A DNA stretch of 64,000 nt from Myxococcales bacterium (GTDB lineage Bacteria; Myxococcota_A; Polyangia; Polyangiales; Polyangiaceae), in the NCBI GenBank assembly GCA_016212965.1, contig JACRDA010000497.1:26487-90486 (forward strand), given 5' to 3'. Under the pieces are notes generated by a model. That model ran no database searches and was not told where the DNA came from. It saw nothing but the letters and a program-made list of their open reading frames with translations. Shown here one piece after another: positions 14,509 to 46,985 of this stretch. Both the position numbers and the translations under genes were made by a program. Position 1 is the stretch's first letter; every line of letters begins with the position of its first letter.

Positions 14509-15582
14509 ATGTCCACGAGCGACCAGGGCGGCCCCGAGCGCCGCAAGCCACTCGAAGCGCGCTTCGTCCCCCGCGCGGCGGTGGCGCTCGCGGCCGAGCT
14601 GCGGCTCGGAGACGCGGTGCTCGCTGGACGCGTCGAGAACCTGTCCGTGGGCGGAGCGTTTCTATGTGTCCCGGCGGACGCGCGTGCCGACGTGCCGATG
14701 GGGGCTCGCGTGGAGCTCCGGGTGGAGCTACCCGACGGGTCGCTCGCGGCACCGGCCCGAGTCGTGTGGCTGCGCGCCGACCGTGGCGCGAGCGAGCGTG
14801 GGATCGCGCTCGGCTTCGAGGATCTCCGCGAGGAGGCGGCCCTGCGGATCCACCGCGTCGTCGAGGCGCTCGAGCCGATGGCCTGGGAGGGAGCGCGGTC
14901 CGAGCGCGCCCTGCCGCGCGAGGTCGCCGCGCGCTTCGTCCCGGTGCTGCGCCGCATGGCGGCGCGGCTCGCGGGGTCGCGCCCGTCGAGCCGGACGAGT
15001 CCGGACGATCTCGTGGGCGCCGGCTTCCTCGGGCTCGTGGAGGCGCACCGGCGCTGGCCGTCGCGCACGCTCGCGGGGTTCGAGCCGTACGCTCTCGTCT
15101 GCATGCGCGGCGCCATGGTCGACGAGCTCCGCCGGGCCGATCCGTTGACGCGGCGGCAGCGGCGCCGCGCGCGCGAGATGGAGCTCGCGAGCGCGCGGCT
15201 CTGGACGGGGCTCGGCCGTCCGCCCGACGACGTCGAGGTGGCCGACTACCTCGGTCTCGGCCTCGACGAGTACCACGCCTGCCGCCGCGAGCTCGCCTCG
15301 GCGCAGACCGTCGCCTGGGTCGACGGGGCCGACCAGGTGGCGGCTCCGGCCTTCGACGCGCGCCCCGACGAGCACGTGATCGAGCGCGAGTCGCGCGCCG
15401 CGATCGAGGTCGCCTTGGCGGCCCTGCCCGAGCGCCTGCGTCGCGTGCTCGAGCTCTACTACGGCGACGAGCTCACGCTGCGCGAGATCGGCAACCTGCT
15501 CGGCGTGAGCGAGTCGCGCATCAGCCAGCTCGTCGGTCAGGCGGTCGCCACCCTGCGCAGTCGCGTGACCGACGCCGGCTGA
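14509..15582 (+). CDS. PilZ-domain / sigma-70-family (FliA/WhiG sigma-28-like) fusion protein
   Basis: ORF 14509..15582, with ATG 4 nt after the kinase stop. The N-terminal ~110 aa is PilZ-like (ERRKPLEAR...VENLSVGGAFL...ARVVWLR). The C-terminal part has sigma regions 2-4 (DLVGAGFLGLVEAHRRW, YALVCMRGAMVDELRR, LPERLRRVLELYYGDELTLREIGNLLGVSESRISQLVGQAVATLR). Confidence 0.75.
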   Translation: MSTSDQGGPERRKPLEARFVPRAAVALAAELRLGDAVLAGRVENLSVGGAFLCVPADARADVPMGARVELRVELPDGSLAAPARVVWLRADRGASERGIALGFEDLREEAALRIHRVVEALEPMAWEGARSERALPREVAARFVPVLRRMAARLAGSRPSSRTSPDDLVGAGFLGLVEAHRRWPSRTLAGFEPYALVCMRGAMVDELRRADPLTRRQRRRAREMELASARLWTGLGRPPDDVEVADYLGLGLDEYHACRRELASAQTVAWVDGADQVAAPAFDARPDEHVIERESRAAIEVALAALPERLRRVLELYYGDELTLREIGNLLGVSESRISQLVGQAVATLRSRVTDAG

Positions 15583-18920: not shown

Positions 18921-19532
18921 ATGCTCCCGAAGACGCTGCTCTTGCTCTGCGCCGCCGCGCTCGGCGCGTGCCACGAGACGCCCCCGCCCGGAGGCCACCC
19001 GCCGTCGAGCGGCCACCCCACCGCGCCGCCGCCGACCGGCACCGGCGCGGCCCCCACGGCCACGGCGCCCGGCACGGTGCAGCCGACCGCCGCTCCGACG
19101 CCCACGACTGCTGCGAGCGGTGCCGTCCCGGACAAGCTCGAGGGCCCGTACCTCCTCACGTACAACCAGACGGGCGGCATCGCGGGCCTGCACATGACCT
19201 TCGTGCTCGACACGAACAAGCGGACCGCGACCTACTCGGGCTTGCGCGGCGGCTCGCCCGAGACGAAGGACGTGACCGCCGCCGAGATCGCCGCCATCAC
19301 GCAGGCCCTCGAGGCGGCGCGGCCGTCGACCTTCGCCCCGGTCAAGGGTCCTGCCGTGCCCGACGCCTTCACCTACGCCGTCGCGCTCGACTACGGCGGC
19401 AAGCTCGCGCTCGCCACCTGGTCGGACGGCACGCCGGCGCCCGAGCAGCTCGTGACCCTGCGCGAGGCCATCGTGAAGCTGCGCGACGCGAAGTTCCCGG
19501 CACGGCCGCCGGTGAGTGGCCCGAAGCAGTAG
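18921..19532 (+). CDS. Hypothetical lipoprotein with a Pro/Thr/Ala-rich linker
   Basis: ORF 18921..19532 with an ATG start. Lipobox is LLLLCAAALGAC. This is followed by a PT-rich linker and a ~130-aa globular part (GPYLLTYNQTGGIAGLHMTF...). Confidence 0.6.
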   Translation: MLPKTLLLLCAAALGACHETPPPGGHPPSSGHPTAPPPTGTGAAPTATAPGTVQPTAAPTPTTAASGAVPDKLEGPYLLTYNQTGGIAGLHMTFVLDTNKRTATYSGLRGGSPETKDVTAAEIAAITQALEAARPSTFAPVKGPAVPDAFTYAVALDYGGKLALATWSDGTPAPEQLVTLREAIVKLRDAKFPARPPVSGPKQ

Positions 19533-21782: not shown

Positions 21783-21956
21783 CGGCGCTCTCCCAGCGGT
21801 GCCGGGCAGGCTCCCGTCCGGCCCCGCTCCGCAACCCCTGAGTCCTAGCTGTATCGCGCGGCGGCGACCGTCGCAAGGCGCGCCCGAGAACGAGCCGCCC
21901 GCCTGCTCCGGTCGAGAGCCTTCGCGCCCGTGCGGGATCGAGGCTAAGGCCGGCGC

Positions 21957-22775
21957 ATGCATCCGCCTCCACCGGCCTTCCACGCTCGCTACGGTCGCGT
22001 CGCGCTCGTCGCGGGCGGCTCGGAGGGCCTCGGCGCCGAGCTCGCGCGTGGGCTCGCCGCGCGCGGGCTCGACCTCGTGCTCGCGGCGCGGCGCGCGGAG
22101 CCCCTGTCCGCTCTCGGCGCCGAGCTCGCGCGCGCGCACGGCGTGTCGGTGCGCTCCGTCGCGGCCGACCTCGCCGAGCCCGACGGCGTCGCCGCGGCCG
22201 TCGCCGCGACCGAGGGGCTCGAGCTCGGGCTCGTCGTGTGCAACGCGGCGCTCGCGCCCGTCGGTCGCTTCCTCGCCGAGCCGGCGGCGCGGCACGAGCG
22301 CGTCCTCGCCCTCAACTGTCGCGCACCGGCGCTGCTGATCCACGCGCTCGCCCCGCGCCTCGTCGCGCGTGGGCGCGGCGGCGTCGTCGTGTGCTCCGCG
22401 CGGGCCGGCCATCGGGGAACGGCGCTCGTCGCACACTACGCGGCGACGAAGGCCTACCTGCGGGTGCTCGCGGAGGGGCTCTGGCAGGAGCTGCGCCCGC
22501 ACGGCGTGGACGTGCTCGCCTGCTGTCCGGGGCCGGTCGAGACGCCGACGTTCCGCAAGGACGAGCCCGCGACCGCAGGCTGGCTGTCGCTGCCCCCGAT
22601 GGACCCCGCCGCGGTGGCCGAGCAGACGCTGCGCGCGCTCGGCCGCGGGCCGGTGGTGGTCCCCGGGCTCCGGCCCGCGCTCGCGAGCGCACTCGTGACG
22701 CGCCTGTTGCCGCGGCGCCTCGCGATCGCGCTCGCCTCGGCGGGCACGCGCGCGATGTACGCGCGGCGCACGTAG
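21957..22775 (+). CDS. Short-chain dehydrogenase/reductase (SDR) family oxidoreductase
   Basis: ORF 21957..22775. It has a Rossmann motif (VALVAGGSEGLGAELARGLAARG), a catalytic YxxxK (YAATKAY) and NAAL. Its stop TAG (22773-75) abuts the stop CTA (22776-78) of the convergent ERG2-like gene. Confidence 0.8.
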   Translation: MHPPPPAFHARYGRVALVAGGSEGLGAELARGLAARGLDLVLAARRAEPLSALGAELARAHGVSVRSVAADLAEPDGVAAAVAATEGLELGLVVCNAALAPVGRFLAEPAARHERVLALNCRAPALLIHALAPRLVARGRGGVVVCSARAGHRGTALVAHYAATKAYLRVLAEGLWQELRPHGVDVLACCPGPVETPTFRKDEPATAGWLSLPPMDPAAVAEQTLRALGRGPVVVPGLRPALASALVTRLLPRRLAIALASAGTRAMYARRT

Positions 22776-23453
22776 CTAGCCGCGCGGAATCTCGTTCGTC
22801 CAGGGTCGCGGCGTGAACAGGCTCGCGAGCGGTGGGCCGACGAGCGAGGGAAGGATGCCGGCGAGCCGCTTGATGGGCCGCAGGAGCGGCGAGCCCGGGG
22901 CGTCCGGATTGCGCCAGTGCCGGCCAATGCACGCGGTGTAGACCGCGAGGGTCTGCGCCGCGGTGAGGCCATCGAGCGCGGACAGCGACACGTCCGCGAG
23001 TCCGAACGGGATCGAGAGCGGCAACGGGCCGCGCTCGTACTCGAGCGCCCACACGCCGTTCGTGAAGTTCATGCCGACCGCCTGGCCGGCGCCCACGTAG
23101 ATGCGGTCGCCGGGCTTGAAGATGCGCGGCTCGAACACGCCCTCGGCGTAGTACCAGGTCTCGCCGTCGAGCACCGTGTCCCAGAACCCGCAGGCGTGGC
23201 GGCCCGAGTGGCCCTCCGACCCGATCGGCGTCCCCCAGATCATGATGTACTCGAACAGGGACGCGAAATAGAGCTTCATCTGGATCATCGCGCCGCCCGC
23301 GATGCTGTAGAGCCAGGGCAGGCTGCGATCGATGTGGCTCGGATAGTGCGACTCGAGCGCGCTCGCGACGGCATCGAACAGCTCGGGCTTCGGCTTGCCG
23401 AGACCGGCGAGCGCGCACTCGTGGACGACGTCGGGGTCGAAGACGTACTGCAC
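22776..23453 (-). CDS. ERG2 / sigma-1-receptor family protein (C-8 sterol isomerase-like), without the N-terminal TM helix
   Basis: This is the C-terminal 225 codons of ORF 22776..24527(-). GTG at 23453 is preceded by GGAGGAA with an 8-nt spacer. From memory it aligns with human SIGMAR1:
- GGAMIQMKLYFASLFEYIMIWGTPIGSEGHSGRH vs [34 protein letters not shown]
- FWDTVLDG vs EISDTIISG (Asp126 equivalent present)
- WALEYERGPLP vs WMVEYGRGVIP (Glu172 equivalent present). Confidence 0.75.
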   Translation of the reverse strand: MQYVFDPDVVHECALAGLGKPKPELFDAVASALESHYPSHIDRSLPWLYSIAGGAMIQMKLYFASLFEYIMIWGTPIGSEGHSGRHACGFWDTVLDGETWYYAEGVFEPRIFKPGDRIYVGAGQAVGMNFTNGVWALEYERGPLPLSIPFGLADVSLSALDGLTAAQTLAVYTACIGRHWRNPDAPGSPLLRPIKRLAGILPSLVGPPLASLFTPRPWTNEIPRG

Positions 23454-23495
23454 GTAGGTGATTCCTCCGATGGGGGGTGGCCGGGCCGCTCGTCG

Positions 23496-23600
23496 GTGCG
23501 GGTGCGGGCGGGCGTGTGCGGGTGCGGGTGCGGGTGCGGGTGCGGGCGCGGGCGCGGGTGCAGGGGCGGGCGCGAGGGCGGGGGCGAGGGCGGGGGCACC
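23496..23600. repeat. Degenerate tandem hexanucleotide repeat (GTGCGG/GCGCGG/GGGCGA)n, about 17 units, G-rich on the + strand
   Basis: Read directly from the sequence: gtgcgg gtgcgg gcgggc gtgtgc..., then five perfect gtgcgg units at 23516-23545, then gcgcgg x2, gtgcag, gggcgg, gcgcga, gggcgg, gggcga, gggcgg, gggcac. It lies between the stop of 23624..23947 and the start of the ERG2-like gene. Confidence 0.85.
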
Positions 23601-23623
23601 CGTCGGCGGGCGCCGACGGGGTC

Positions 23624-23947
23624 TCAGCGTGGCAGCATCGCCATGACGCGCCGGCGCTCCCCTTCGAGGATCTCGATCGCGCGCCCGAGTCCGATCTCGC
23701 CCGCGACGGCGAGTAGGAGCGCGCCGGCCCCGGAGGTCGCGCCGCCCTTCGCAGCCACGCCGCTGCGGGCGCGGTCCGCGTCGCGTTGCTTGCGGGCGCG
23801 CGCCACGGAGCGGATCGTGTAGACGTACTTCTCGGTGAGGGCGAGCCCGACGGCCTTGCCCTTGGCGACGATCTCCTTCGCCATCAGATCCGGGTGCTCG
23901 AGGATGAAGTCGGACTTGTTCTGCGTCGTCTTCTTCTGCTTCGCCAT
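23624..23947 (-). CDS. Small basic hypothetical protein (107 aa)
   Basis: ORF 23624..23947(-). ATG at 23947 is preceded by AAGGAG about 10 nt upstream. It begins MAKQKKTTQNKSDFILEHPDLMAKEIVAKGKAVGL..., a composition unlike the GC-artefact ORFs. No family recognised. Confidence 0.55.
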   Translation of the reverse strand: MAKQKKTTQNKSDFILEHPDLMAKEIVAKGKAVGLALTEKYVYTIRSVARARKQRDADRARSGVAAKGGATSGAGALLLAVAGEIGLGRAIEILEGERRRVMAMLPR

Positions 23948-24305
23948 GGGGGTCCTGCTCCTTTGCGGCCCACGCTAGCATCATCGAGATCTCGGACGCA
24001 CCCCCCGCGGTCCCGCGGGAGCGCAAGCGCCAGCGCGCGTCCGAGCCCGTGCCGCGCCGCGGCGACCTGCCGCCGACCGCTCCCGACCCGCCGGCCCGGC
24101 GGCCCCTCGCGCTCGTGGCCGCGTTCGTGGCCGCGCTCGGCCTGCTCGTGCTTCTGGCGGTCGTCTCGCGACTGTGAGACACCGGGGACGCCGCGCTGCC
24201 AGCGTGGCGCGGCGTCCCTGCCACCTTGCGGGGGCGCCGCGGTGCCGGTCGACGCGTCGGGCAGCCCGCACCGGCGCAGAGCCGCACAACCCCGTGAGCG
24301 AAGAA

Positions 24306-26666
24306 ATGACCAAGGACCGCAGGGGGTCGACGCATCCCGAGAGCACGCACGGACGACGCGGCGTGCGACAGCGCTTGTTTCGCCGCATCGTCGCCTGGCG
24401 CTGGCTCGTCGTCGCCTTCTGGGTCGTCGTCAGCGTCCCGTGCGCCTTCTTGGCGACCCGCGTGGGGAACGACAGCTCGGTCGACGGCATCATCGACCCG
24501 AACGACCCCGGCATCGTGCAGAGCCACGCGTTCGCTGCCGTCTTCGGGCGCGGCGAGATGGCCGTCCTCATCCTCGAGGCCGACGACCCCTATGCGCCGC
24601 CGGTGCTGGCGCGCGCGGACGCGCTCGTCCAGGCGCTCGCGGCGGTCCCCGGCGTCACGGCCACGTCGATCGTGACCACGTTCCGCGAGGCGAAGGCGGG
24701 CTTCGACCCGCAGAAAGACGGCGAGCGGCTGCGGCGCTTCGCCACCGGCACGAGCTTCTTTCGCGAGCAGGGCCTCGTCGGCGACGACTTCCTCGTCGTG
24801 GCGCTCGTCCTCGACACCGAGCCCGGGGCGGAGCGCGACGACACGCTCGATGCCGTCGACCGCGCGCTCGACGAGGTCGGCACGGCCGGGCTTCGCCAGC
24901 TGCGGCGCGTCGGCAAGCCCTACGTGAACCGCTACTTCGACGCGGCGCAGAAGCGCTCGGGCCCGATCTACTTCGGGCTCTTCATGGCGTTCGTCGTGGT
25001 GCTGACGGTCGCGCTTTTCCGCTCGTGGCGCACCCTGTGCGCCATCCTGCTGACGCTCGGGGTGTGCCTCGCGGTCTCGATGGGCTTCATCGGCCTACTG
25101 CGGGGCAAGTTCACCCTCGTGTCGCCGATGGTGCCCATGACGATCCTCGTCACGGCGACGGCCACGCTCGTCTACCTGCACGCGCGCTTCGTCGACAAGC
25201 CCGACGAGCGCAGCGTCGAGGACCACCAGATCTTCGCCCTCGGCAACAAGTTCCTCGCCTGCACCGCCTCGATCTTCGCCGCGGCCGTGGGCTTCGCCGC
25301 CCTCTTCGTTTCCCACATGAAGGCGATCCGCGACATGGGCGTCTGGGTGGCCGGGGGTCTGTTCTTCACCTGGCTCGTGGCGTTCACGCTCTTCCCGGCC
25401 CTGCAGCGGCTGCTGCGCACCCCGACGCGCAGCGCGCGCAAGGCGACGGCGAGCTCCTGGTTCGCGGCGCTCGCGCGGGTGCTGCCCGGTTTCACGTACC
25501 GCTTTCGCTGGCCGCTGGTGCTCGGCGCGCTCGTGCTCTCGGCGGGCGGCGTGGTCGCCGTGTTCGGTGCCGGTCGGGCGCTCTCGCCGATGACGCCGCT
25601 CACCGAGCCCATCGAGTACGTGAGCCGCGACTCCGACGTGTACCGCGACACCGTGCGGGCGCGCGCCATCCTGCCGGGGCTCAGCATCACCCAGGTGTGG
25701 ATCAAGGGCGACGCCAAGGTGAATCTCGCCGATCCGCCCATGCTCTCCGGCCTCGAGCGCTTCGAGCGGGCGCTCGCCGCCGACGAGGAGGTCGGGTCGG
25801 TCGTCGGCTTGCCGAGCATCCTGCGCATGGTCCTCTACGCCGGCGACCGGGGCGACAAGTGGCCAGGCGACGACGAGGGGCTCGAGGAGCTCGCCGAGAT
25901 GCTCGAGTCGCTCAGCGTGGCGAAGCCGCAGGCGGTGCGCGCCTTCGTCGACCGGGGCCTGACCCAGACGCAGTTCACGGTCATCAACGGCGCGACGGAG
26001 CACGAGGCCTTCGCGCGCCTGCAGGCCCGCATCGATCACCACTGGCAGGAGGCCACGGCGGCACACCCGGCGCTCGCCAAGCTCGAGCTGTCGACCGTGG
26101 GCCTCGGGCCGCTGCAGGCCAAGATGAGCCAGAGCCTCGTCCCGACGCTGGTCGAGAGCTTCGCCCTCACGGCGGGCATCATCTTCGTCACGTTCCTCAT
26201 CGTCTTCCGCAGCGGCGCGGCGCGCATCATGACGATGCTGCCGTCGCTCTTCGCGATCCTCGTGATGTTCCTCGTGATGCGCATCACGGGCATGGCGCCG
26301 AACGTGGCGACCATCCTCATCGCCTCGACCGTGCTCGGCACCTCCGAGAACGACCAGATCCACTTCTTCTACCACTTCCAGGAGGGCCGGCGCCGCGGCA
26401 CGGTGCAGCAGGCGCTCGAGCACACCTTCCTCGTGGCCGGCCGCGCCGTCTTCTTCGCCACCATCATCAACGCCGGCGGGTTCCTCGCCTTCGCCTTCGC
26501 CGAGGTGCGCCCGATGCAGCAGTTCGGCGGCCTCACCGCGCTCGCGCTCGGGCTCTCGATGGTCGCCGACTTCACGGCCCTGCCCGCGGCGCTGTGGCTC
26601 GTGTTCCGCGCCAAGCCCGACGCGGTCGCGCCCGCCCCCGCCGCCGCGACCGCGCCAGAGGCGTAG
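24306..26666 (+). CDS. RND-superfamily / MMPL-type transporter (HpnN-like lipid exporter architecture)
   Basis: This is the real part of ORF 24174..26666, starting at ATG 24306 (MTKDRRGS). It has two TM bundles of about 6 helices, each preceded by a large soluble loop. The TM bundles (GLFMAFVVVLTVALFRSWRTLCAILLTLGVCLAVSMGFIGLL...; ALTAGIIFVTFLIVFRSGAARIMTMLPSLFAILVMFLVMRITG...) are typical of MMPL/SSD-containing RND proteins. Confidence 0.8.
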   Translation: MTKDRRGSTHPESTHGRRGVRQRLFRRIVAWRWLVVAFWVVVSVPCAFLATRVGNDSSVDGIIDPNDPGIVQSHAFAAVFGRGEMAVLILEADDPYAPPVLARADALVQALAAVPGVTATSIVTTFREAKAGFDPQKDGERLRRFATGTSFFREQGLVGDDFLVVALVLDTEPGAERDDTLDAVDRALDEVGTAGLRQLRRVGKPYVNRYFDAAQKRSGPIYFGLFMAFVVVLTVALFRSWRTLCAILLTLGVCLAVSMGFIGLLRGKFTLVSPMVPMTILVTATATLVYLHARFVDKPDERSVEDHQIFALGNKFLACTASIFAAAVGFAALFVSHMKAIRDMGVWVAGGLFFTWLVAFTLFPALQRLLRTPTRSARKATASSWFAALARVLPGFTYRFRWPLVLGALVLSAGGVVAVFGAGRALSPMTPLTEPIEYVSRDSDVYRDTVRARAILPGLSITQVWIKGDAKVNLADPPMLSGLERFERALAADEEVGSVVGLPSILRMVLYAGDRGDKWPGDDEGLEELAEMLESLSVAKPQAVRAFVDRGLTQTQFTVINGATEHEAFARLQARIDHHWQEATAAHPALAKLELSTVGLGPLQAKMSQSLVPTLVESFALTAGIIFVTFLIVFRSGAARIMTMLPSLFAILVMFLVMRITGMAPNVATILIASTVLGTSENDQIHFFYHFQEGRRRGTVQQALEHTFLVAGRAVFFATIINAGGFLAFAFAEVRPMQQFGGLTALALGLSMVADFTALPAALWLVFRAKPDAVAPAPAAATAPEA

Positions 26667-35353: not shown

Positions 35354-36994
35354 ATGGCACGCAGCATCTCGAGGTGGGGCTCCGTCGGTATCGTCGTCGC
35401 GCTCTGCGCGGCCTGCAGCGATTCGGGCGAGGAATCGATCGTCACGCCCGGCACGGGCGGCAGCGGCGCGACGACCGGGACCGGCGGCGCAGGCGGGCAG
35501 GCGACGGGTGGCGGCGGCGGCGCCGGCGTGTGTCAGCCGAATCCGTGTCTGCACGGCGGCAGCTGCCACGACGCCGGCGCGACCTTCACCTGCGAGTGCC
35601 TGGCCGGGTACTCCGGCGACAGCTGCGAGGTGGACATCGACGAGTGCACGCCGAACCCCTGCGTCAACGGCGGCCAGTGCGTGGACGGCGTGGCGAGCTA
35701 CACCTGCCAGTGCCCGGCCGGCTACGGCGGCACGAATTGCGAGCTCAACATCGACGACTGCACGCCGGATCCCTGCCAGAACGGTGGCACCTGCATCGAC
35801 GGCGTCGACTCGTACGGCTGCGACTGCCTGCCCGGCTACACCGGCGCGAACTGCGAGACGGTGGCGAGCGGCTGCACGCCCAATCCGTGTCTCAACGGCG
35901 GCACCTGCAACGACCTCGGCGGCGGCAACTACGATTGCAGCTGCCTGCCCGGCTACACCGGGAACAACTGCGCGATCAACATCGACGACTGCACGCCGAA
36001 TCCCTGCCAGAACGGCGGGGGATGCGTCGACGGAGTGAACGGCTACGGCTGCAACTGCGTGAACGGCTACAGCGGCACCAATTGCGAGGTCGCGCCGGTG
36101 CCGACCTACTGCGACGTGACCTACGTCGTCGGCAGCGGGGCCTGCGGCGCGCCGACCGAGAACGGTCGCTTCCACAACATCAAGACCGGCTTCGGCGGCA
36201 TGAACGTCTACTACGGCGTCGGCCTCAACTGCACCACGCCGAAGCGCGGCACGGGCAACGGGACGGCCGTCGCGTCGCCGTTCACACCCGCCCTCTTCCC
36301 GCGCGGCTACCTGCGGCTGCGGTTCCCGACGAGCGGCGGCGTGCCGGTCGCGGGCGCGGTCTCGCTCGTCGAGTACTACCTACCCATCGAGTTCACGGTG
36401 AACGGCCTGCTCAACACCAACGTGACGACCGACGTCGACCACAGCGCCGGGCTCCTGCACCACGAGACGGCCGGCTGCCCCGGCGGCTACACGGGCTGTC
36501 TCACCGGCGTGTCCGACTCGGTCGCTCCGACCCTCGAGCGGCCCTGCACCGCGGTGGCGGCCGGGACCTTGAACGGCACGACGCTCACCTGGGGCAGTTG
36601 CGGCCTCACCCCGCCCGGCCCCTGCCTCGGGGTCGGCTGCACGCCGACCAACGCGCAGCTCAACTGGACCGGGGCGAGCTCGCAGATCGACACGTCCGTG
36701 AACCCTGGCTGCGTCGCGAACGTGACCTCCTGGGGCGGCGTGTGGTGCACGTCGGGCCTGTGCAACGCCGTGCCCGGCACGAACGCGCCCTCGAACGACA
36801 CCTGGGATCACGAGTTTCCGAGCCTGACCTTCAGCTCGACCGCCTACGCCACGGCGGGCACGACGGTGACCCTCACCGAGAGCGTCGTGCCGGACGGCTA
36901 CGCCGACGTGTACTCGGGCACCGAGGTGGTCACGGCGAGCTACGCCGCGATCGAGTGCGGCACGCTGCCGCAGCTCACCTGCGACGAGCAGTAG
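35354..36994 (+). CDS. Lipoprotein with five tandem EGF / calcium-binding-EGF repeats and a ~300-aa C-terminal domain of unknown function
   Basis: Part of ORF 35234..36994. ATG at 35354 gives [21 protein letters not shown] (lipobox); alternative ATGs at 35309/35318 are possible. The repeats follow C.PNPC.NGG.C.DG...Y.C.C..GY.G.NCE, with D-I-D-E/D-C linkers, and span 35531-36088. Confidence 0.7.
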
Positions 36995-37014: not shown

Positions 37015-37208
37015 CTCAGTCTGGATTTCGCGCTGCGCGCGAGGCTTCGGGCTCCAGGCTCCAGGCTTCAGGCGGGATTCGGTCTTGCCGACCCATTCCG
37101 AGCTTGCCCGGTAGGTGACTTCGCGGCGGTCGACTCGGCGCGGATTCCTCCCTGAAGCCCGTAGCCGGTAGTCTGGAGCCTTCGCGCTCGCGCGAAATCG
37201 AGGCTCAG
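37015..37208. repeat. Long imperfect inverted repeat filling a convergent intergenic region (bidirectional terminator or MITE/REP-like element)
   Basis: The left arm (~37015-37085) and the reverse complement of the right arm (~37139-37208) share ordered blocks: GATTTCGCGC (37024-37033 vs 37190-37199), GCGCGA, GGCTCCAG, GGCTTCAGG and GGATT/GGAAT. There is also a short direct repeat, ggctccaggctccaggcttcagg. The right arm overlaps the stop codon of 37205..40720. Confidence 0.6.
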
Positions 37209-40200
37209 TCCGCGCGGCTCGGGACGTCGCTCTCCGGCAGGAGCTCGGCGTCCGGCACGGCGCTCTGGCCGATCCGCTCGCTGAGCGGCGCCATGTCGGC
37301 CACGTGGATCGCGCCCTCCTCGCCCGCGAGCTCGGCGCGCGCCGCGGCGAGCAGCGTGTCGCTCTTGCGCAGCCGGTCGTTGAGGACGCGGATGACGCCC
37401 ACGGCGAGCTCCGAGCTGGCGCGCACGGCGTCCTGGAACTCCTCGGTAGCCACGCGCAACAGGCGCACTTCCTCGCGTGCGGTGGCCGTGACGCCGCGCG
37501 CCTGACGCTCGAAGATGGACAGCTCGCCGAAGGCCTCGTTCGGACCGAGCACGGCGATCTCGCGCCCGTCGACGTCGAGCCCGACCGCGCCCGAGATGAT
37601 GAAGTAGAGCGCCGCGCCCATGGCGCCCTGGCGGAATACGACCTCGCCGCGGCCGAGGTCCACGACCTGGGCGCCGCGCGCCAGCTCCACGAGGTCCTCG
37701 CCGGCGACCTTCGCGAACACCGGCACCCGCTGCAGGAACAGGACCTTCTCGACGGTGGTGAACATGGGCGTCTCGACCGGGGGGGGTGTCGGGGGTGTGG
37801 CGTTCGACCCCGCGTCCGCATTGTGCAGCGCACGGCGCGCCCAGGCCAACACCACGGGGTCGGCGTCGCGACTCAGGGTGTCGAGGCAGCCGCGCGCGCC
37901 GTCCGGGCGCAGGCGCGCGAGGGCGAGGACGGCGTTCTCGCGCACGAGCGGGTGCGGATGGAAGGTCGCCTCGAGCGCGTAGGGTCCGACGTCGTAGAGG
38001 GCGTGGTGAGCGGCGGCCTCGAGCGCGAGGGCCGTCCGGTAGGGGATGCCGCCCTCGATCTCCTGCGACAGGAAGGTGACGGCGTAGGCGGCGCGCGGTC
38101 CGAGTGGCGGCTCCGGGAAGCGCCCGGCCACGAGCTCGGCGAGGCGCTCGGCCATGCGGACGAAGCGCTCGCCGAGGGCGCGATCGAGCAGGGCCGTCAG
38201 GAGCTCGATGGCGTTGGCGCGCCGGGCCGGCTCGGCGTCGAAGAGGCGCGCCCGCACCGAGGCGATGGCCTCGCGCGGGTAGCCGAGCTCGCACAGGCGC
38301 AGCGCGCGGACGAGCGCGCGGCGCAGCCGGTCGAGCACGTGCGCCTCGAGCAGCGGACGCAGGACCAGCGGCCGCACCTCGAGGTACTCCTCGCACAGGC
38401 GCTCGTGGCACGCGAGCTCGCGCAGGATGCGCGGCCGCAGTGGCGCGAGGGGCACGCGCGGCAGGGCGAGCGCGCGGCGCGCCCGCGAGGCGGCCGCCAC
38501 CACCCGCCCGCGCACGAGCTCGTCCTCGACGTCGACGTGGCGCAGCAGGGCGTCGAAGGCGCTGCGATGGTCGATGCGCCCGAGCACGCGGGGAACCGCC
38601 AGGCGCAGGCCGGGCGCCGCGTCGGGGTCGGCGAGCTCCCGCTCGAGGGCGGGGACGGCCTCGGAGCCGAGGGCGGCGAGCGCGAGCTCGGCCTCGCGCC
38701 GCAGCGCCGGCTCGCCGAGGGCGCGCAGCATCGAGGCGAGCAGGCGCGCCGGTCGCACGCGCACCGCGGCCGCGAGCGCGGCACGCCGCACCTCGCGCTC
38801 GGGGTCGTCGCACAGCGGCGCGAGCGAGCGCACGAGCGAGCCCTTGCCCACCATGCCGAGCACGTGCGCGGCCGAGATGCGCTCGGACGCGAGGGGGCTG
38901 TGGAGCAGGGCGGCGAGGCGCGGCGCCCCGAGCAACATGCCGTCGAGCCCGCAGTGCAAGAGCAGCTCGGCGGTCGCGGTCTCGCGCAGGGCCGGGTCGT
39001 CGTCCCGCGCCGCGAGCGCCTCGAGCTCGCCGAGCACGTCCTCGTGCCGGCAGGTCGCGAGCGCCTCGATGGCGCGGCGCCGCACCTCGACGTCGGGGTC
39101 CGTGAGCGCGGCGCGCGCCAGCTCCGGGGCGGCCTCGTGATCGAGCTCGCGCGCGAGCCCGAGGGCGAGGGCGCGCACGCGCGGCGCCGCGTGGCGCGCG
39201 AGCTTCGGGACCGCGGCGCGCAGGCTCGGCGGGTCGAGCTCCCGTAGCTTCTGGGCGGCGAAGCCCACGCGCAGGGCGTCGTCGCTGGCGAGCGCCTCGC
39301 AGAGGCCCGCGAGGGCGGTGCGGTCGAGCTCGCCGTCGCCTCCGACGTCGTGGCGCATGAGCGAGCGGCGCATGGCGTCGAGGTAGCCGCGTCGCAGGGC
39401 GGGCATGAGCCCGAGCACGCCGAGGCCGAGCGGCACCGTCACGAGGGCGAGCAGCGAGACCTCGGTCACGAGCTCCGGTCCCGGGGCTGCGTCGGCGCCC
39501 GGCGCGAGCAGCACGAGCGCGAGCCCGCCGAGCCCGTAGCCGAGCGGCTTCACGATGCCGGCGAGCAGGGTCCGGACGCGCGAGCGCTGCTCGCTCGGGT
39601 AGGGGAAGAGCAGCATCTGCAGCGAGGCCTCGTGGACCGTGAACTGCAGCCCGTTGTCGCTGCCCTTCATGACGGCTGCGAGCCCGAGGCTCGGGTAGAG
39701 CCCGACGGCCGCGCTCGCGAGCGTGAACACGAGCGGCACGAGCACCATGCCCGCCATCACGCCGAAGCGCTCGAGCAGGCGCGGCGCCACGACGAGCTGC
39801 ACCACCACGGCCGCCGCCCCGAGCACGCCGTAGAACAGGCCCATGAAGCTCGCGAGCGCGTCGCGGTCGGGCAGGGCGCTCCGGGCAATGGCCTTCCACT
39901 GGTAGTCGCCCACCGTGAGGATGGCGAAGAGCACGAGCGTCGCGAGCGCGATGGTGCGCGCGTAGCGCGAGCGCAGCACCGGCAGGCGGCGCAGCCGCGC
40001 CTCGATGACCCCCTCGCCCGCCGCCCGCGGCTCGGGCAGGCGGCTGCCCCGCGCCAGCAGCCACACGAGCGCGCCGAAGAGCGCGAAGGCCGCCATGAGC
40101 ACGTAGAACAGGTCGAGCGTGCCGACGGCGTGCGCGAGCGCGCCAGTGAGAAAGCCGCTCACGGTCATGCCGACCACGCGGCCGGTCGCGATCCAGCCGA

Positions 40201-40720
40201 ACGCGCGCCGGGCGCTGCGCGCATCGTGGAGGTCCTGTGCCAGCGTCCAGCCGACGACGGCCATGAGGTTCGCGACGACCTCGCTCCACACGTAGAAGAC
40301 GACGTAGGCCCACGCGACGTCGAGCCCGATGAGGATGCGGAGCACGCCGTAGCTCACGCAGCCGACGGCCGCGAAGCCGAGCGCGAAGCCGCGCCGCGGC
40401 AGCCGGTCGGCGAGGCGCGCGTAGCCGACGGCCACGAGCCCCGCGACCGCCGCGTACGCGATCCACATCGGCGCGACCCACCGCACCGGGAAGCGGGTGA
40501 GGAAGAGCGCGTCGCGCGCCGCGCGCCCCACGACGAGCACGAGCGCCGCGAGGAAGAGCAAGAGGAAGAGCAGCGCCGTGCGCGTGGCCGCGTCGAGCTC
40601 ACGCTCCGGGCCCCGGGTGCCGTCCGGCCCGCCACCCTCGGCGGCCGCGTCGAGCGCGAGGTGCGGCGGGCGCCCGACCGCGTCCTCGGCGGCGAGCGGA
40701 TCCGGGCTCTCGTCCTGCAT
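37205..40720 (-). CDS. Fusion protein: 12-TM MFS/ATP:ADP-antiporter-like (TLC/Npt-type) transporter domain + HEAT repeats + C-terminal cyclic-nucleotide-binding domain
   Basis: From ORF 37205..40738(-). ATG at 40720 (MQDESPD), with an alternative GTG at 40738. The N-terminal ~430 aa is polytopic (LFLLLFLAALVLVVGRAARDALFLTRF..., as in nucleotide-transporter/MFS families). The middle has repeated ..DPD.EVRRRAIEAL.. and ..DDPEREVRRAAL.. HEAT/PBS-lyase units. The C-terminus is cNMP-binding (FLQRVPVFAKVAGEDLVELA...GEVVFRQGAMGAALYFIISGAV...GPNEAFGELS). Confidence 0.75.
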   Translation of the reverse strand: MQDESPDPLAAEDAVGRPPHLALDAAAEGGGPDGTRGPERELDAATRTALLFLLLFLAALVLVVGRAARDALFLTRFPVRWVAPMWIAYAAVAGLVAVGYARLADRLPRRGFALGFAAVGCVSYGVLRILIGLDVAWAYVVFYVWSEVVANLMAVVGWTLAQDLHDARSARRAFGWIATGRVVGMTVSGFLTGALAHAVGTLDLFYVLMAAFALFGALVWLLARGSRLPEPRAAGEGVIEARLRRLPVLRSRYARTIALATLVLFAILTVGDYQWKAIARSALPDRDALASFMGLFYGVLGAAAVVVQLVVAPRLLERFGVMAGMVLVPLVFTLASAAVGLYPSLGLAAVMKGSDNGLQFTVHEASLQMLLFPYPSEQRSRVRTLLAGIVKPLGYGLGGLALVLLAPGADAAPGPELVTEVSLLALVTVPLGLGVLGLMPALRRGYLDAMRRSLMRHDVGGDGELDRTALAGLCEALASDDALRVGFAAQKLRELDPPSLRAAVPKLARHAAPRVRALALGLARELDHEAAPELARAALTDPDVEVRRRAIEALATCRHEDVLGELEALAARDDDPALRETATAELLLHCGLDGMLLGAPRLAALLHSPLASERISAAHVLGMVGKGSLVRSLAPLCDDPEREVRRAALAAAVRVRPARLLASMLRALGEPALRREAELALAALGSEAVPALERELADPDAAPGLRLAVPRVLGRIDHRSAFDALLRHVDVEDELVRGRVVAAASRARRALALPRVPLAPLRPRILRELACHERLCEEYLEVRPLVLRPLLEAHVLDRLRRALVRALRLCELGYPREAIASVRARLFDAEPARRANAIELLTALLDRALGERFVRMAERLAELVAGRFPEPPLGPRAAYAVTFLSQEIEGGIPYRTALALEAAAHHALYDVGPYALEATFHPHPLVRENAVLALARLRPDGARGCLDTLSRDADPVVLAWARRALHNADAGSNATPPTPPPVETPMFTTVEKVLFLQRVPVFAKVAGEDLVELARGAQVVDLGRGEVVFRQGAMGAALYFIISGAVGLDVDGREIAVLGPNEAFGELSIFERQARGVTATAREEVRLLRVATEEFQDAVRASSELAVGVIRVLNDRLRKSDTLLAAARAELAGEEGAIHVADMAPLSERIGQSAVPDAELLPESDVPSRAD

Positions 40721-40777
40721 CGGCCCGCATTGGACCACGTTCGTGCACCCGGCGCACGAAGGTGCCCGGCGCGCCCG

Positions 40778-46900: not shown

Positions 46901-46985
46901 TCCTTTGCTGTGCGGAGGCGGTCCCGTCGAGCAAGGCGGCCACGGCGAAGAAAGAGGCTCGGAGCCAAAGCTTGCAGGCGTTCAC
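43917..46985 (-). CDS. Secreted beta-propeller (NHL/SMP-30-like) protein with a CC..DC.DGN.CT.D.C repeat module, a MopE-like DNDC motif and a MYXO-CTERM-type sorting tail
   Basis: This is the real part of ORF 43917..48473(-). GTG at 46985 is preceded by GGAGGG with a 6-nt spacer, and gives MNACKLWLRASFFAVAALLDGTASAQQ (signal peptide). Propeller-like repeats include GRVAVDTNGDVWIAN, AVAVDREGKIWVANW, TYDLNGKIWASGY and LSVDFDGFIWSV. The Cys-rich module spans 44247-45242. The tail is GGGGCACVLAGDD...ALVAALSALGLVLARRRRRG. Confidence 0.7.
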   Translation of the reverse strand: MNACKLWLRASFFAVAALLDGTASAQQRTFTTNADFDLGILDNVRHAPVNDQLVLGRTAVSKTRLVWVSNTSPGGTAPTPLSPGWLVRIDTTLGPTLGRQTARFDSVLTSINGLPTGASTSGNNPGRVAVDTNGDVWIANRAYYEGAKQGSLSKFSGNLAHCIDRNNNGVIDTSHDANGDGIVDPYKTPALGTPAAEVEYYAQADECILTTIPVGAVGDIPRAVAVDREGKIWVANWQGHTVYRFNPNEPVALETSRVFTPAFGWPTTAWFYSAATADDYIYLTSNPGWSGVGNTGQIIRIHINNIAQADSVTCGGGVGTCGSVYGLVAIPGTHKAWAGGYSGTGVYKVDFDASPPTCTCVSVPSQVTAVTYDLNGKIWASGYSSNNVYRINPTTNVIEATCPTGGANPHGLSVDFDGFIWSVQDGPNHLVRFDPVQTAANCGRTAYPIDRGAVPMPPGQNAYNYGPYLYSDFTGVQIDRQAPYTYLGSWDSSGYDGGADDIPWSTVRWNLEPQGAVPALTSLTVNVRAANTLAALGQAAYAPAVNGAPLAGIAGRYVQVRTNLKGPGWVTSVLSDVTVVGPCDPIDQSCCISNTDCDDGNPCTADVCPTPGGQCQHAPVFDCCAQDPDCNDSDLCTTDTCNVAINACNHAPVPNCCNSSSNCDDGVFCTVDQCSGPGGTCTSTPISGCCQTDADCDDGNGCSVDVCPPNNLCQHTPTPGCCTVDADCRENPDDLCTQNGCEILSGTCTLVDLKPLGCCNVDPDCSDGDPCTTDSCTGPGGTCQHLDDPTCCTPNDPQVGQPCDVPQSPYDQAPCQPGQLVCVNGQFDCVGAVKPGLEVCDGADNDCNGIVDLPGNCPSPSDICLWGQCVAPCSPGEFPCPAGQQCYDGHCVPISCANTVCPSGQTCVNGLCEDQGTGGAGGSGTGGSAPTGGGGQSAGGSPPTGGTSHGGTGQGGTGNGHAPAGDWRLATGGGGCACVLAGDDRDSEAALVAALSALGLVLARRRRRGAGAEPSQPSRGDR

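What the first reader, a model, noticed from the sequence alone, without database searches (positions are those of the whole stretch)
22776..26666. Bacterial ERG2 / sigma-1-receptor homologue next to an RND/MMPL lipid-transporter-type gene
The 225-aa product aligns along its length with the cupin-like body of eukaryotic ERG2/SIGMAR1. The two acidic residues that line the ligand/sterol site are conserved (D in FWDTVL, E in LEYERG). It starts right at the point where the eukaryotic proteins finish their N-terminal TM helix, so it would be a soluble or peripherally bound version.

Gene order and orientation around it:
- Upstream on the same strand lies a small basic protein, 23624..23947 (-).
- That small gene shares a 358-bp divergent promoter region (23948-24305) with an 786-aa RND/MMPL transporter, 24306..26666 (+). 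This is the architecture used by HpnN-type hopanoid exporters and by bacterial sterol transporters. The ERG2-like gene and the transporter are therefore neighbours on opposite strands, not a directly divergent pair.
- An SDR oxidoreductase abuts the 3' end of the ERG2-like gene, stop-to-stop.

Sterol synthesis is known in some myxobacteria, but the downstream tailoring and trafficking genes are poorly defined. This three-gene neighbourhood is a candidate sterol or cyclic-triterpenoid modification/transport module.
Basis: partly seen in the sequence, partly recalled or inferred. Interest (0 to 1): 0.7.

Follow-up and report, generated by a model that had tools for sequence, protein, structure and literature searches.

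The report
Bacterial ERG2/sigma-1-like enzyme paired with reductase
This myxobacterial gene really does encode an anchor-less relative of the fungal sterol isomerase ERG2 and the human sigma-1 receptor, but its conserved partner across four bacterial phyla is the adjacent short-chain reductase, not the neighbouring membrane transporter.

Summary
Gene 22776..23453(-) encodes a 225-aa ERG2_Sigma1R protein (Pfam E=1.4e-43). A confident model (pLDDT 92) superposes on sigma-1 receptor at 1.5 A. It has no N-terminal membrane helix and keeps the D/E pair.

- **Distribution:** this is a distinct, tightly conserved bacterial subfamily (56-98% identity) found in 137 species genomes of Myxococcota, Spirochaetota, Actinomycetota and Chloroflexota.
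- **Partners:** 61 of 80 loci place it beside NAD(P) oxidoreductases. These are the orthologue of the window's SDR (40 loci), a 3beta-HSD-like enzyme (35), and a steroid 5alpha-reductase (26) about 60% identical to PbSRD5A, which reduces progesterone in vitro.
- **Transporter:** the RND gene and the small basic gene recur only in the sister genome. The RND scores far below the HpnN cut-off, and its orthologues elsewhere have unrelated neighbours.
- **Sterol synthesis:** no cyclase, epoxidase or CYP51 lies in the 64 kb.

Best reading: a peripheral-membrane double-bond isomerase working with the convergent SDR on a steroid-like lipid, probably tailoring rather than de novo synthesis. The substrate is inferred, not shown. 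I rate it a new variant of a known kind, of moderate interest.

The parts
22776..23453 (-). ERG2/sigma-1-receptor-like CDS (225 aa, GTG start). Residues 1-180 form a cupin barrel plus two helices. Residues 181-225 are a subfamily-specific tail with an amphipathic helix at 192-212.
   Evidence: Pfam PF04622 E=1.4e-43. PDB sigma-1 receptor E=5e-29. AF2 pLDDT 92 and Foldseek TM 0.75-0.80. pN/pS 0.07. Helix muH 0.47.
23463..23468 (-). Shine-Dalgarno GGAGGA, nine nt before the GTG start
   Evidence: Read directly from the sequence. Conserved in the sister genome L001.
21957..22775 (+). Classical SDR (272 aa), convergent with the ERG2-like gene and stop-to-stop with it. This is the conserved partner.
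   Evidence: adh_short E=1.4e-34. Best NCBIfam hit is mycolate reductase, 138 bits against a cut-off of 380, so the protein is unassigned. The orthologue is adjacent in 40 of 80 loci. GxSxGxG, N, S and YxxxK motifs are conserved.
23495..23594 (.). Hexamer tandem repeat (GGTGCG, about 16 copies) in the spacer upstream of the ERG2-like gene. Its length differs between strains.
   Evidence: TRF. The spacer is about 46 nt shorter in L001, mostly within the repeat.
23599..23620 (-). GC-rich hairpin (8-bp stem) just after the stop of the small gene. It may separate the two transcripts.
   Evidence: Read from the sequence. The arms are nearly conserved in L001, with one mismatch in the 3' arm. The consensus terminator scan did not call it, because there is no T-run.
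23624..23947 (-). Small basic 107-aa protein. A lineage-specific neighbour, not part of the conserved module.
   Evidence: No Pfam or NCBIfam hit. Found only in L001 among 80 loci.
24306..26666 (+). RND transporter of the HAE3/MMPL type (786 aa from this ATG; 767 aa as called by NCBI). A bystander neighbour.
   Evidence: MMPL 1.9e-22. HAE3 133 bits against a cut-off of 352, and HpnN 72 bits against 752. Adjacent to an ERG2-like gene only in L001. Orthologues elsewhere have unrelated neighbours.

Best explanation
The 225-aa protein is an anchor-less member of the ERG2/sigma-1-receptor fold family.

Shown:
- It has a closed cupin barrel with a buried Asp92/Glu138/Tyr69 cluster, capped by C-terminal helices.
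- Its conserved genomic partner is the convergent SDR.
- The RND transporter and the small basic gene are not conserved partners.

Inferred:
- It sits on the cytoplasmic face of the membrane, held by its amphipathic C-terminal helices. These include an extra helix, 192-212, that replaces the missing N-terminal anchor.
- It takes a polycyclic, steroid-like lipid from the bilayer and shifts a ring double bond by acid/base catalysis through the carboxylate pair. This would be ERG2-type Delta8 to Delta7 chemistry, or alternatively a Delta5 to Delta4 shift in a 3-ketosteroid.
- The adjacent SDR, probably NADP(H)-dependent, interconverts the 3-hydroxy and 3-keto group of the same substrate.
- In many other bacteria the same pair is extended by a 3beta-HSD-like dehydrogenase and an SRD5A-type 5alpha-reductase. 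Together these supply the four activities needed to turn a Delta5-3beta-hydroxysteroid into a 5alpha-stanol.
- The window carries the reduced two-gene form.
- The module more likely tailors sterols or steroid-like lipids that are acquired or made elsewhere than forms part of a de novo sterol pathway.
For: Family and fold:
- Pfam, PDB and Foldseek all place it in the ERG2/sigma-1 family.
- E138, Y69 and the GHxGR motif are invariant across 29 diverse homologues. D92 is invariant within the subfamily.
- The sigma-1 pocket has been crystallised with progesterone and DHEA-S (PDB titles).

Partnership:
- 61 of 80 genome loci have at least one of the three oxidoreductases next to the gene. The split is SDR only 26, HSD+SRD 18, all three 8, SDR+HSD 6 and HSD only 3.
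- The pair is flanked by unrelated genes in every lineage examined.
- In Dehalococcoidia the arrangement is SDR then ERG2-like, co-directional, with a gap of about 40 nt.
- Pairwise identities of the ERG2-like proteins and of the SDRs co-vary (Mantel r=0.77, 0 of 2000 permutations reach it).

Steroid link:
- The SRD5A-like partner hits Steroid_dh at E=1e-53. It hits PDB 7C83 (PbSRD5A) at E=8e-89 and is 55-62% identical to it.
- PbSRD5A reduces progesterone to 5alpha-dihydroprogesterone in vitro (PMC7815742).
- In the sister clade, P0127 lies beside a 3Beta_HSD gene, a KshA-like Rieske gene and an F420H2-reductase gene. P0126 and P0235 are F420H2-reductase::ERG2 fusions.
- A 42%-identical Nostoc homologue ends a sterol-type gene cluster.
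Against: - There is no biochemical evidence for any member of this subfamily.
- Sigma-1 receptor, the closest solved relative, is to my knowledge a ligand-binding protein without isomerase activity, so the fold does not guarantee catalysis.
- The window lacks the 3beta-HSD-like and SRD5A-like genes, so the strongest steroid evidence is indirect for this genome.
- 12 of 73 informative loci have none of the partners.
- Classical SDRs are substrate-promiscuous, and this one has no equivalog.
- The Mantel correlation is also expected from shared phylogeny.
- Whether the source genome makes sterols or hopanoids could not be checked.
Confidence: 0.55

Rival explanations
1. One reading: a three-gene sterol or cyclic-triterpenoid modification-and-export module, in which the RND pump (HpnN/BstA-like) exports the lipid made by the ERG2-like enzyme and the SDR.
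For: The genes are physically close. The RND has MMPL and Sterol-sensing Pfam hits and weak HpnN similarity. The same gene order is seen in L001.
Against: - The RND and small genes are absent from the other 79 loci.
- L001 is essentially the same species (94-98% amino-acid identity).
- RND orthologues at 56-60% identity sit in unrelated contexts.
- HpnN scores 72 bits against a cut-off of 752, and the equivalog NF052374 scores 22 against 1100.
- The sterol-sensing-domain hit is common to many orthologues of this RND group. To my knowledge it reflects general RND/SSD homology.
Confidence: 0.07
2. It is the C-8 sterol isomerase of a de novo sterol pathway in a sterol-producing Polyangiales genome, with the cyclase and other genes located elsewhere.
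For: Some Myxococcota make sterols, and bacterial ERG2 homologues have been linked to that (PMC2817430, PMC8237579). A Nostoc homologue lies in a sterol cluster. JGI annotates family members as 'C-8 sterol isomerase'.
Against: - The subfamily is a separate clade, 33-43% identical to the cluster-borne cyanobacterial, Pseudenhygromyxa and Capsaspora proteins.
- It occurs in Dehalococcoidia, Spirochaetia and Anaeromyxobacteraceae MAGs. These lineages are, to my knowledge, largely anaerobic, whereas sterol synthesis needs O2.
- No sterol-synthesis gene lies in the 64 kb or within +/-10 kb in about 85 loci.
Confidence: 0.12
3. It is a non-catalytic ligand-binding protein, a sigma-1-like lipid or steroid sensor or chaperone, perhaps presenting substrate to the SDR.
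For: The closest solved relatives are sigma-1 receptors. The D/E pair sits in the sigma-1 register rather than in the register of the Capsaspora (eukaryotic ERG2-type) clade.
Against: Persistent pairing with, and even fusion to, reductases is more typical of consecutive enzymes. The Nostoc-type proteins in sterol clusters share the same D/E register.
Confidence: 0.1
4. It isomerises a non-steroid hydrophobic substrate, such as a hopanoid or other triterpenoid, a polyprenyl chain, a carotenoid, or an unsaturated fatty or polyketide chain. The steroid-like partners would then act on that substrate instead.
For: To my knowledge, the SRD5A family also includes polyprenol and enoyl-CoA reductases. 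PDB 22of, an enoyl-CoA reductase, is a weak hit. The best NCBIfam hit for the SDR is a mycolate (lipid) reductase. A START/SRPBCC cyclase-like gene replaces SRD5A in Actinophytocola.
Against: The SRD5A partner is far closer to the steroid-reducing PbSRD5A and human SRD5A2 (301 and 164 bits) than to the enoyl-CoA reductase (50 bits). The KshA-like and 3Beta_HSD associations also point to steroids.
Confidence: 0.16

Closest known systems
Sigma-1 receptor (SIGMAR1; PDB 5HK1, 7W2B, 8W4B)
   Same: Same fold: TM 0.75-0.80 and rmsd 1.5 A over about 180 residues, at 31-34% identity. The Asp/Glu pair and the Tyr are in the same register. The pocket of the receptor has been crystallised with steroids.
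   Different: There is no N-terminal TM helix, and there is an extra C-terminal amphipathic helix and Pro-rich tail. It is bacterial, with genomic coupling to oxidoreductases. The receptor is, to my knowledge, not an enzyme.
Fungal/eukaryotic ERG2 C-8 sterol isomerase (Pfam PF04622)
   Same: Same Pfam family, well above threshold. The Glu and the GHxGR motif are invariant. The proposed chemistry (double-bond migration in a sterol ring) is modelled on it.
   Different: - It is about 35-43% identical to the clade that contains the Capsaspora ERG2.
- That clade has Phe where this protein has Asp92, with acidic residues two positions earlier.
- There is no TM anchor.
- It is not embedded in a sterol pathway.
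- Activity is untested.
Bacterial 'ERG2 family' proteins of sterol-producing bacteria (Calothrix/Nostoc sterol clusters; Pseudenhygromyxa; P. pacifica in PMC2817430; Methylotuvimicrobium C-8 isomerase in PMC13277303)
   Same: They are also TM-less and about 190-205 aa (the sequences examined here), and the Nostoc/Calothrix type keeps the D/E pair. They are bacterial PF04622 members already noted in the literature.
   Different: They form a different clade (33-43% identity) and lack the 45-residue GRHW...IP tail. The Nostoc homologue examined here lies inside a sterol-type cluster (Rieske/KshA_C, EBP, methyltransferase, p450, FAD_binding_4). The window's subfamily sits beside SDR, 3beta-HSD and SRD5A genes, in hosts not known to make sterols.
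PbSRD5A-type bacterial steroid 5alpha-reductase (PDB 7C83) and the plant campesterol-to-campestanol (DET2) route
   Same: In 26 of 80 loci the ERG2-like gene is linked to a protein 55-62% identical to PbSRD5A, together with a 3beta-HSD-like gene and in 8 of these also the SDR. From my own knowledge, this is the same set of activities as the stenol-to-stanol route.
   Different: The window itself has neither the SRD5A nor the 3beta-HSD gene. No physiological role for PbSRD5A-type proteins turned up in the passages read.
HpnN / HAE3 / MMPL RND lipid exporters
   Same: The neighbouring 786-aa protein has the RND/MMPL architecture.
   Different: It scores far below the HpnN and HAE3 family cut-offs. 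It has no hopanoid genes nearby and is not a conserved neighbour of the ERG2-like gene.

Membership tests
Pfam PF04622 ERG2_Sigma1R | Profile match above the curated gathering score | tested here: met
   149.2 bits against a cut-off of 21, E=1.4e-43, covering profile positions 21-200 of 210
Pfam PF04622 ERG2_Sigma1R | Cupin-like beta-barrel capped by C-terminal helices | tested here: met
   AF2 model with pLDDT 92.1 and pTM 0.89. Foldseek to sigma-1 receptor gives E about 1e-17, TM 0.75-0.80 and rmsd 1.5 A.
Pfam PF04622 ERG2_Sigma1R | Buried acidic pair equivalent to sigma-1 D126/E172, plus Y103 | tested here: met
   D92, E138 and Y69 align with them. E138 and Y69 are invariant in 29 sequences, and D92 is invariant within the subfamily.
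Pfam PF04622 ERG2_Sigma1R | N-terminal transmembrane anchor, as in eukaryotic ERG2 and sigma-1 | tested here: not met
   The protein starts at the residue that aligns with sigma-1 residue 35. All subfamily members start there. The maximum KD19 hydropathy is 1.29. Other bacterial members also lack the anchor.
C-8 sterol isomerase (EC 5.3.3.5) as an enzyme | Delta8 to Delta7 isomerisation of sterols; complementation of yeast erg2 | not testable with these tools
   Needs an enzyme assay or complementation
Bacterial de novo sterol biosynthesis locus | Co-location with oxidosqualene cyclase, squalene epoxidase, CYP51, or C-4 demethylation genes | tested here: not met
   The Pfam survey of the whole window found none. 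A motif scan found none in the window or in about 85 loci. Contrast the Nostoc locus L084.
Bacterial de novo sterol biosynthesis locus | The genome encodes an oxidosqualene cyclase | not testable with these tools
HpnN hopanoid transporter (TIGR03480 / NF052374) | Score above the curated cut-off | tested here: not met
   72 bits against 751.85, and 22.4 against 1100
HpnN hopanoid transporter (TIGR03480 / NF052374) | Location in a hopanoid (hpn/shc) gene cluster | tested here: not met
   No squalene-hopene cyclase or hpn genes in the window
BstA-type sterol RND transporter | Orthology to BstA and co-location with BstB/BstC sterol-binding proteins | not tested
Nothing resembling a three-gene bst operon is next to the RND.
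ERG2-like / SDR conserved pair (defined here) | An orthologous adh_short gene immediately adjacent (convergent, or co-directional upstream) | tested here: met
   In the window the stops abut at 22775/22776. The orthologue is adjacent in 40 of 80 loci from four phyla.
ERG2-like / SDR / 3beta-HSD-like / SRD5A four-gene module (defined here) | 3Beta_HSD-family and Steroid_dh genes behind the SDR | tested here: not met
   tblastn with representatives of both families finds nothing in the 64 kb. Upstream of the SDR lies a PtsP-type gene.

The most novel reading that the evidence does not exclude
The ERG2/sigma-1-fold protein supplies the missing isomerase step of an oxygen-independent bacterial route that converts environmental Delta5 (or Delta7/Delta8) sterols into 5alpha-stanols. 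The four steps would be 3beta-HSD-like oxidation, ERG2-like double-bond shift, SRD5A reduction and SDR keto-reduction. The route would have spread by horizontal transfer among soil and peat Myxococcota, Spirochaetota, Actinomycetota and Chloroflexota. The window holds its two-gene core. If true, it would name genes for the anaerobic stenol-to-stanol conversion that geochemists use as a redox proxy (PMC7292411), and it would show enzymatic activity for a sigma-1-type D/E pocket.
Probability: 0.2. Interest if true: 0.8.

Novelty: new variant of a known kind. Interest (0 to 1): 0.55.

Why it matters
Bacterial ERG2 homologues have so far been discussed only as parts of de novo sterol pathways and in arguments about the origin of eukaryotic sterol synthesis. 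This subfamily breaks that pattern in three ways:
- It is highly conserved across four phyla.
- It occurs in lineages that are unlikely to make sterols.
- It travels with an SDR, and often with a 3beta-HSD-like enzyme and a close relative of the crystallised, progesterone-reducing PbSRD5A. The papers read here describe no natural role for PbSRD5A.

If the module acts on steroids, it gives a genetic handle on sterol transformation in anoxic soils and peat. It also gives a soluble, easily expressed bacterial model of the sigma-1/ERG2 fold for structure-function work. For annotation, it warns against two errors: reading 'C-8 sterol isomerase' as evidence of sterol synthesis, and inferring lipid export from a merely adjacent RND gene.

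Tried and rejected
- The first AF2 run, on 15 close homologues, gave pLDDT 59 and was discarded. A 29-sequence alignment that added the Nostoc-type clade gave pLDDT 92.
- Sigma-70 promoter and intrinsic-terminator scans found nothing in 21800-24500. This is uninformative at 74% GC.
- NCBIfam has no model for the ERG2-like protein or the small protein.
- A regex scan for the cyclase motifs DCTAE, DxDDTA and QW found nothing in the window or the loci. This is only a weak negative.
- Literature searches for this subfamily or module (PF04622; C-8 sterol isomerase with Anaeromyxobacter; sigma-1 bacterial homolog) found nothing specific.
- The supplement of PMC8237579, which discusses ERG2 phylogeny, is not held.
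- Whole-word 'ERG2' is absent from PMC4919349 and PMC10202945.
- I checked whether PbSRD5A itself comes from one of the fetched loci. It does not; the best match is 62% identical.
- I considered the small basic protein as a regulator of the pair. I rejected this because it is not conserved outside the sister genome.
- I considered co-transcription of the small gene with the ERG2-like gene. This is unlikely, given the conserved hairpin and the 170-bp repeat-containing spacer.

Full report
**The sequence and its source**

The window is about 74% G+C. Its nearest public relative is a Polyangiaceae MAG, SJ101 (locus L001). L001 has the same gene order and 90-98% amino-acid identity across the nine window genes compared. 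The RND protein is 100% identical to one from a 115-kb 'Myxococcales bacterium' contig.

**Checking the observation**

The ERG2-like gene runs 22776..23453 on the minus strand.
- It has a GTG start, with GGAGGA nine nt upstream.
- GC3 is 0.94. Against L001 it has 19 synonymous and 4 non-synonymous changes, so pN/pS is about 0.07 and the gene is under strong purifying selection.
- It matches Pfam ERG2_Sigma1R at E=1.4e-43.
- It matches sigma-1 receptor chains in the PDB at E=5e-29. Query residues 2-175 align with chain residues 35-210, so it begins where the receptor's single TM helix ends.
- The Asp of FWDTV and the Glu of LEYERG align with sigma-1 D126 and E172.

A first structure prediction from a shallow alignment was poor, with pLDDT 59. 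With 29 more diverse homologues the model reached pLDDT 92.1 and pTM 0.89. It superposes on Xenopus and human sigma-1 receptor with TM 0.75-0.80 and rmsd 1.5 A over about 180 residues.

Residues 181-225 have no counterpart in sigma-1 or ERG2. They form an amphipathic helix at 192-212 (muH 0.47), followed by a Pro-rich end. No segment is hydrophobic enough for a TM helix, since the maximum KD19 is 1.29.

- a small 107-aa gene with no family hit;
- an RND gene with MMPL and Sterol-sensing hits;
- an adh_short SDR whose TAG abuts the ERG2-like stop.

**The family**

Across 1.84 billion representative proteins, only 637 clusters match at E<=1e-3 and 33 at E<=1e-30.

The window protein belongs to a tight subfamily.
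- Members share 56-98% identity.
- All start at MxYxFDPD.
- All carry the tail motif GRHW..P..KR..G..GP..P..D.IP.

A rough NJ tree separates this subfamily from three other groups:
- a cyanobacterial clade (Nostoc, Calothrix);
- a clade that contains Pseudenhygromyxa and the eukaryote Capsaspora;
- clades whose members carry a hydrophobic N-terminal extension; no member of these was identified, but their lengths and offsets match eukaryotic ERG2/sigma-1 proteins.

Glu138, Tyr69 and GHxGR are invariant across all of these. Asp92 is replaced by Phe in the Capsaspora-type clade.

A genome scan found the subfamily in 137 species genomes. These were Polyangiaceae, Anaeromyxobacteraceae and other Myxococcota, Spirochaetota, Actinomycetota (Rugosimonospora, Actinophytocola, Amycolatopsis, Labedaea) and Dehalococcoidia. 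Most are soil, peat or fen MAGs. About 65% identity across four phyla points to horizontal spread. This last point is inference.

**What travels with it**

tblastn of the window's neighbours against 80 genome loci gave a clear split.
- The RND, the small protein, PtsP and the emfourin-like gene are found only in L001. The ADP-forming acyl-CoA synthetase has two further, more distant matches (L058, L007).
- The SDR has matches in 44 loci, mostly in the same position and orientation.

De novo clustering of all flanking ORFs then revealed two more recurrent neighbours behind the SDR.
- One is an extended SDR hitting Epimerase and 3Beta_HSD.
- The other is a Steroid_dh protein, E=1e-53.

The tally over 80 loci was as follows.

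| Neighbours present | Loci |
|---|---|
| SDR only (all four phyla; the window's type) | 26 |
| HSD + SRD5A | 18 |
| SDR + HSD + SRD5A | 8 |
| SDR + HSD | 6 |
| HSD only | 3 |
| None | 12 |
| Too close to a contig end | 7 |

Pfam-annotated contigs confirm these arrangements.
- Anaeromyxobacteraceae have ERG2 convergent on a run of adh_short, 3Beta_HSD and Steroid_dh.
- Rugosimonospora has ERG2 convergent on 3Beta_HSD and Steroid_dh.
- A probably spirochaete metagenome contig (L088) and another metagenome contig (L089) have the isolated ERG2/SDR pair.
- Dehalococcoidia have an SDR-then-ERG2 two-gene operon among housekeeping genes.
- The outer flanks differ between the lineages examined.

Pairwise identities of the ERG2-like proteins and of the SDRs co-vary (Mantel r=0.77). 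Shared ancestry would also produce this.

**The steroid link**

Several results tie the family to steroids.
- The SRD5A-like partner matches PDB 7C83 (PbSRD5A) at E=8e-89 and 55-62% identity.
- That protein reduces progesterone to 5alpha-dihydroprogesterone in vitro (PMC7815742).
- In the nearest sister clade, P0127 lies beside a 3Beta_HSD gene, a KshA-like Rieske oxygenase and an F420H2-dependent reductase. P0126 and P0235 are F420H2-reductase::ERG2 fusions.
- A Nostoc homologue, 42% identical in the phmmer search, closes a sterol-type cluster. That cluster contains Rieske/KshA_C, EBP, FAD monooxygenases, a methyltransferase, 3Beta_HSD, p450 and FAD_binding_4 genes.
- Sigma-1 receptor has been crystallised with progesterone and DHEA-S.

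Bacterial PF04622 proteins are therefore repeatedly tied to steroid-type enzymes, and in particular to reductases.

**What is not there**

A Pfam survey of essentially every confident ORF in the 64 kb found mostly signalling proteins, transporters, repeat proteins and a few housekeeping genes. It found no squalene or oxidosqualene cyclase, epoxidase, CYP51 or C-4 demethylation gene. A motif scan agreed. Neither the 3beta-HSD-like nor the SRD5A-like gene is in the window.

The RND scores below every curated cut-off:
- 133 bits against the 352-bit cut-off of HAE3;
- 72 bits against 752 for HpnN.

Its 56-60% identical orthologues in Minicystis rosea and another MAG have unrelated neighbours.

**Mechanism**

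Three things are shown: the fold, the conserved acidic cluster, and the conserved pairing with an SDR.

The rest is inferred.
- The protein would be a monotopic, cytoplasmic-face enzyme held on the membrane by its C-terminal amphipathic helices.
- It would shift a ring double bond in a steroid-like lipid through the Glu/Asp pair.
- The SDR would handle the 3-oxo/3-hydroxy group. It has the Gly-rich motif and the N-S-Y-K tetrad, and a mostly conserved pair of residues after strand beta2 (RR in the window) suggests NADP(H) use.
- The full four-gene version encodes exactly the four activities needed for converting a Delta5-3beta-hydroxysteroid into a 5alpha-stanol.
- A KSI-like Delta5 to Delta4 role for the Glu/Asp/Tyr cluster is an attractive but untested alternative to ERG2-type Delta8 to Delta7 chemistry.

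Stanol/stenol ratios are used as markers of anaerobic microbial transformation (PMC7292411).

**Comparison with what is known**

Bacterial ERG2 homologues have been reported before.
- P. pacifica and mycobacteria: PMC2817430.
- Myxobacteria: PMC8237579.
- A C-8 isomerisation gene in the Calothrix sterol cluster: PMC10202945.
- Methylotuvimicrobium: PMC13277303.

I found nothing on this subfamily or on its oxidoreductase module.

**Verdict**

The ERG2-like/SDR pairing and a steroid-type substrate are plausible. The transporter link and de novo synthesis are not supported.
- I classify it as a new variant of a known kind, with interest about 0.55.

Noticed in passing
window 23495-23594: A GGTGCG hexamer tandem repeat (about 16 copies) lies in the 170-bp spacer just upstream of the ERG2-like RBS. 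The spacer is about 46 nt shorter in the sister genome L001, mostly within the repeat. It is therefore a variable-number repeat in a putative promoter or 5' UTR.
   Followed up: partly
window 22773-22778, and loci L016, L033, L081: The convergent ERG2-like and SDR genes abut stop-to-stop (TAG|CTA) in the window. In other genomes they are 11 nt apart or their 3' ends overlap: by 1 nt in actinomycetes, and by about 160 nt in L081, where the ERG2-like tail is longer. This is an unusually tight convergent arrangement, kept across phyla.
   Followed up: partly
P0126, P0235 (metagenomic proteins); locus L085 7479-7946: Natural fusions of an F420H2-dependent quinone-reductase domain (PF04075) to an ERG2_Sigma1R domain. 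A separate PF04075 gene lies near a sister-clade ERG2-like gene.
   Followed up: partly
locus L090 5600-6037 (Actinophytocola MAG): A Polyketide_cyc2/SRPBCC (START-like lipid-binding) gene occupies the position that the SRD5A-like gene holds in other modules.
   Followed up: no
locus L084 (Nostoc sp. DSM 114161): A sterol-type cluster carries both an EBP-family gene and an ERG2_Sigma1R gene, so both non-homologous types of Delta8-Delta7 isomerase are present. The genome also holds a second ERG2 paralogue (P0408).
   Followed up: no
window 35528-36994: A 488-aa protein with five or more eukaryote-type EGF/hEGF repeats.
   Followed up: no
window 37205-40738: An 1177-aa protein that combines an MFS/TLC (ATP/ADP-translocase-like) membrane domain with HEAT repeats and a cyclic-nucleotide-binding domain.
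   Followed up: no
window 14647-15582: A sigma-70-family protein with an N-terminal PilZ-domain hit, a possible c-di-GMP-responsive sigma factor.
   Followed up: no
window 18921-19532: An emfourin-like protein (a family of protein inhibitors of metalloproteases), conserved in L001.
   Followed up: no
window 43917-46985 and 56896-58860: Large repeat proteins. One has NHL, SGL and Dictyostelium CTDC repeats. The other has seven DUF4215 repeats plus a PA14 domain.
   Followed up: no
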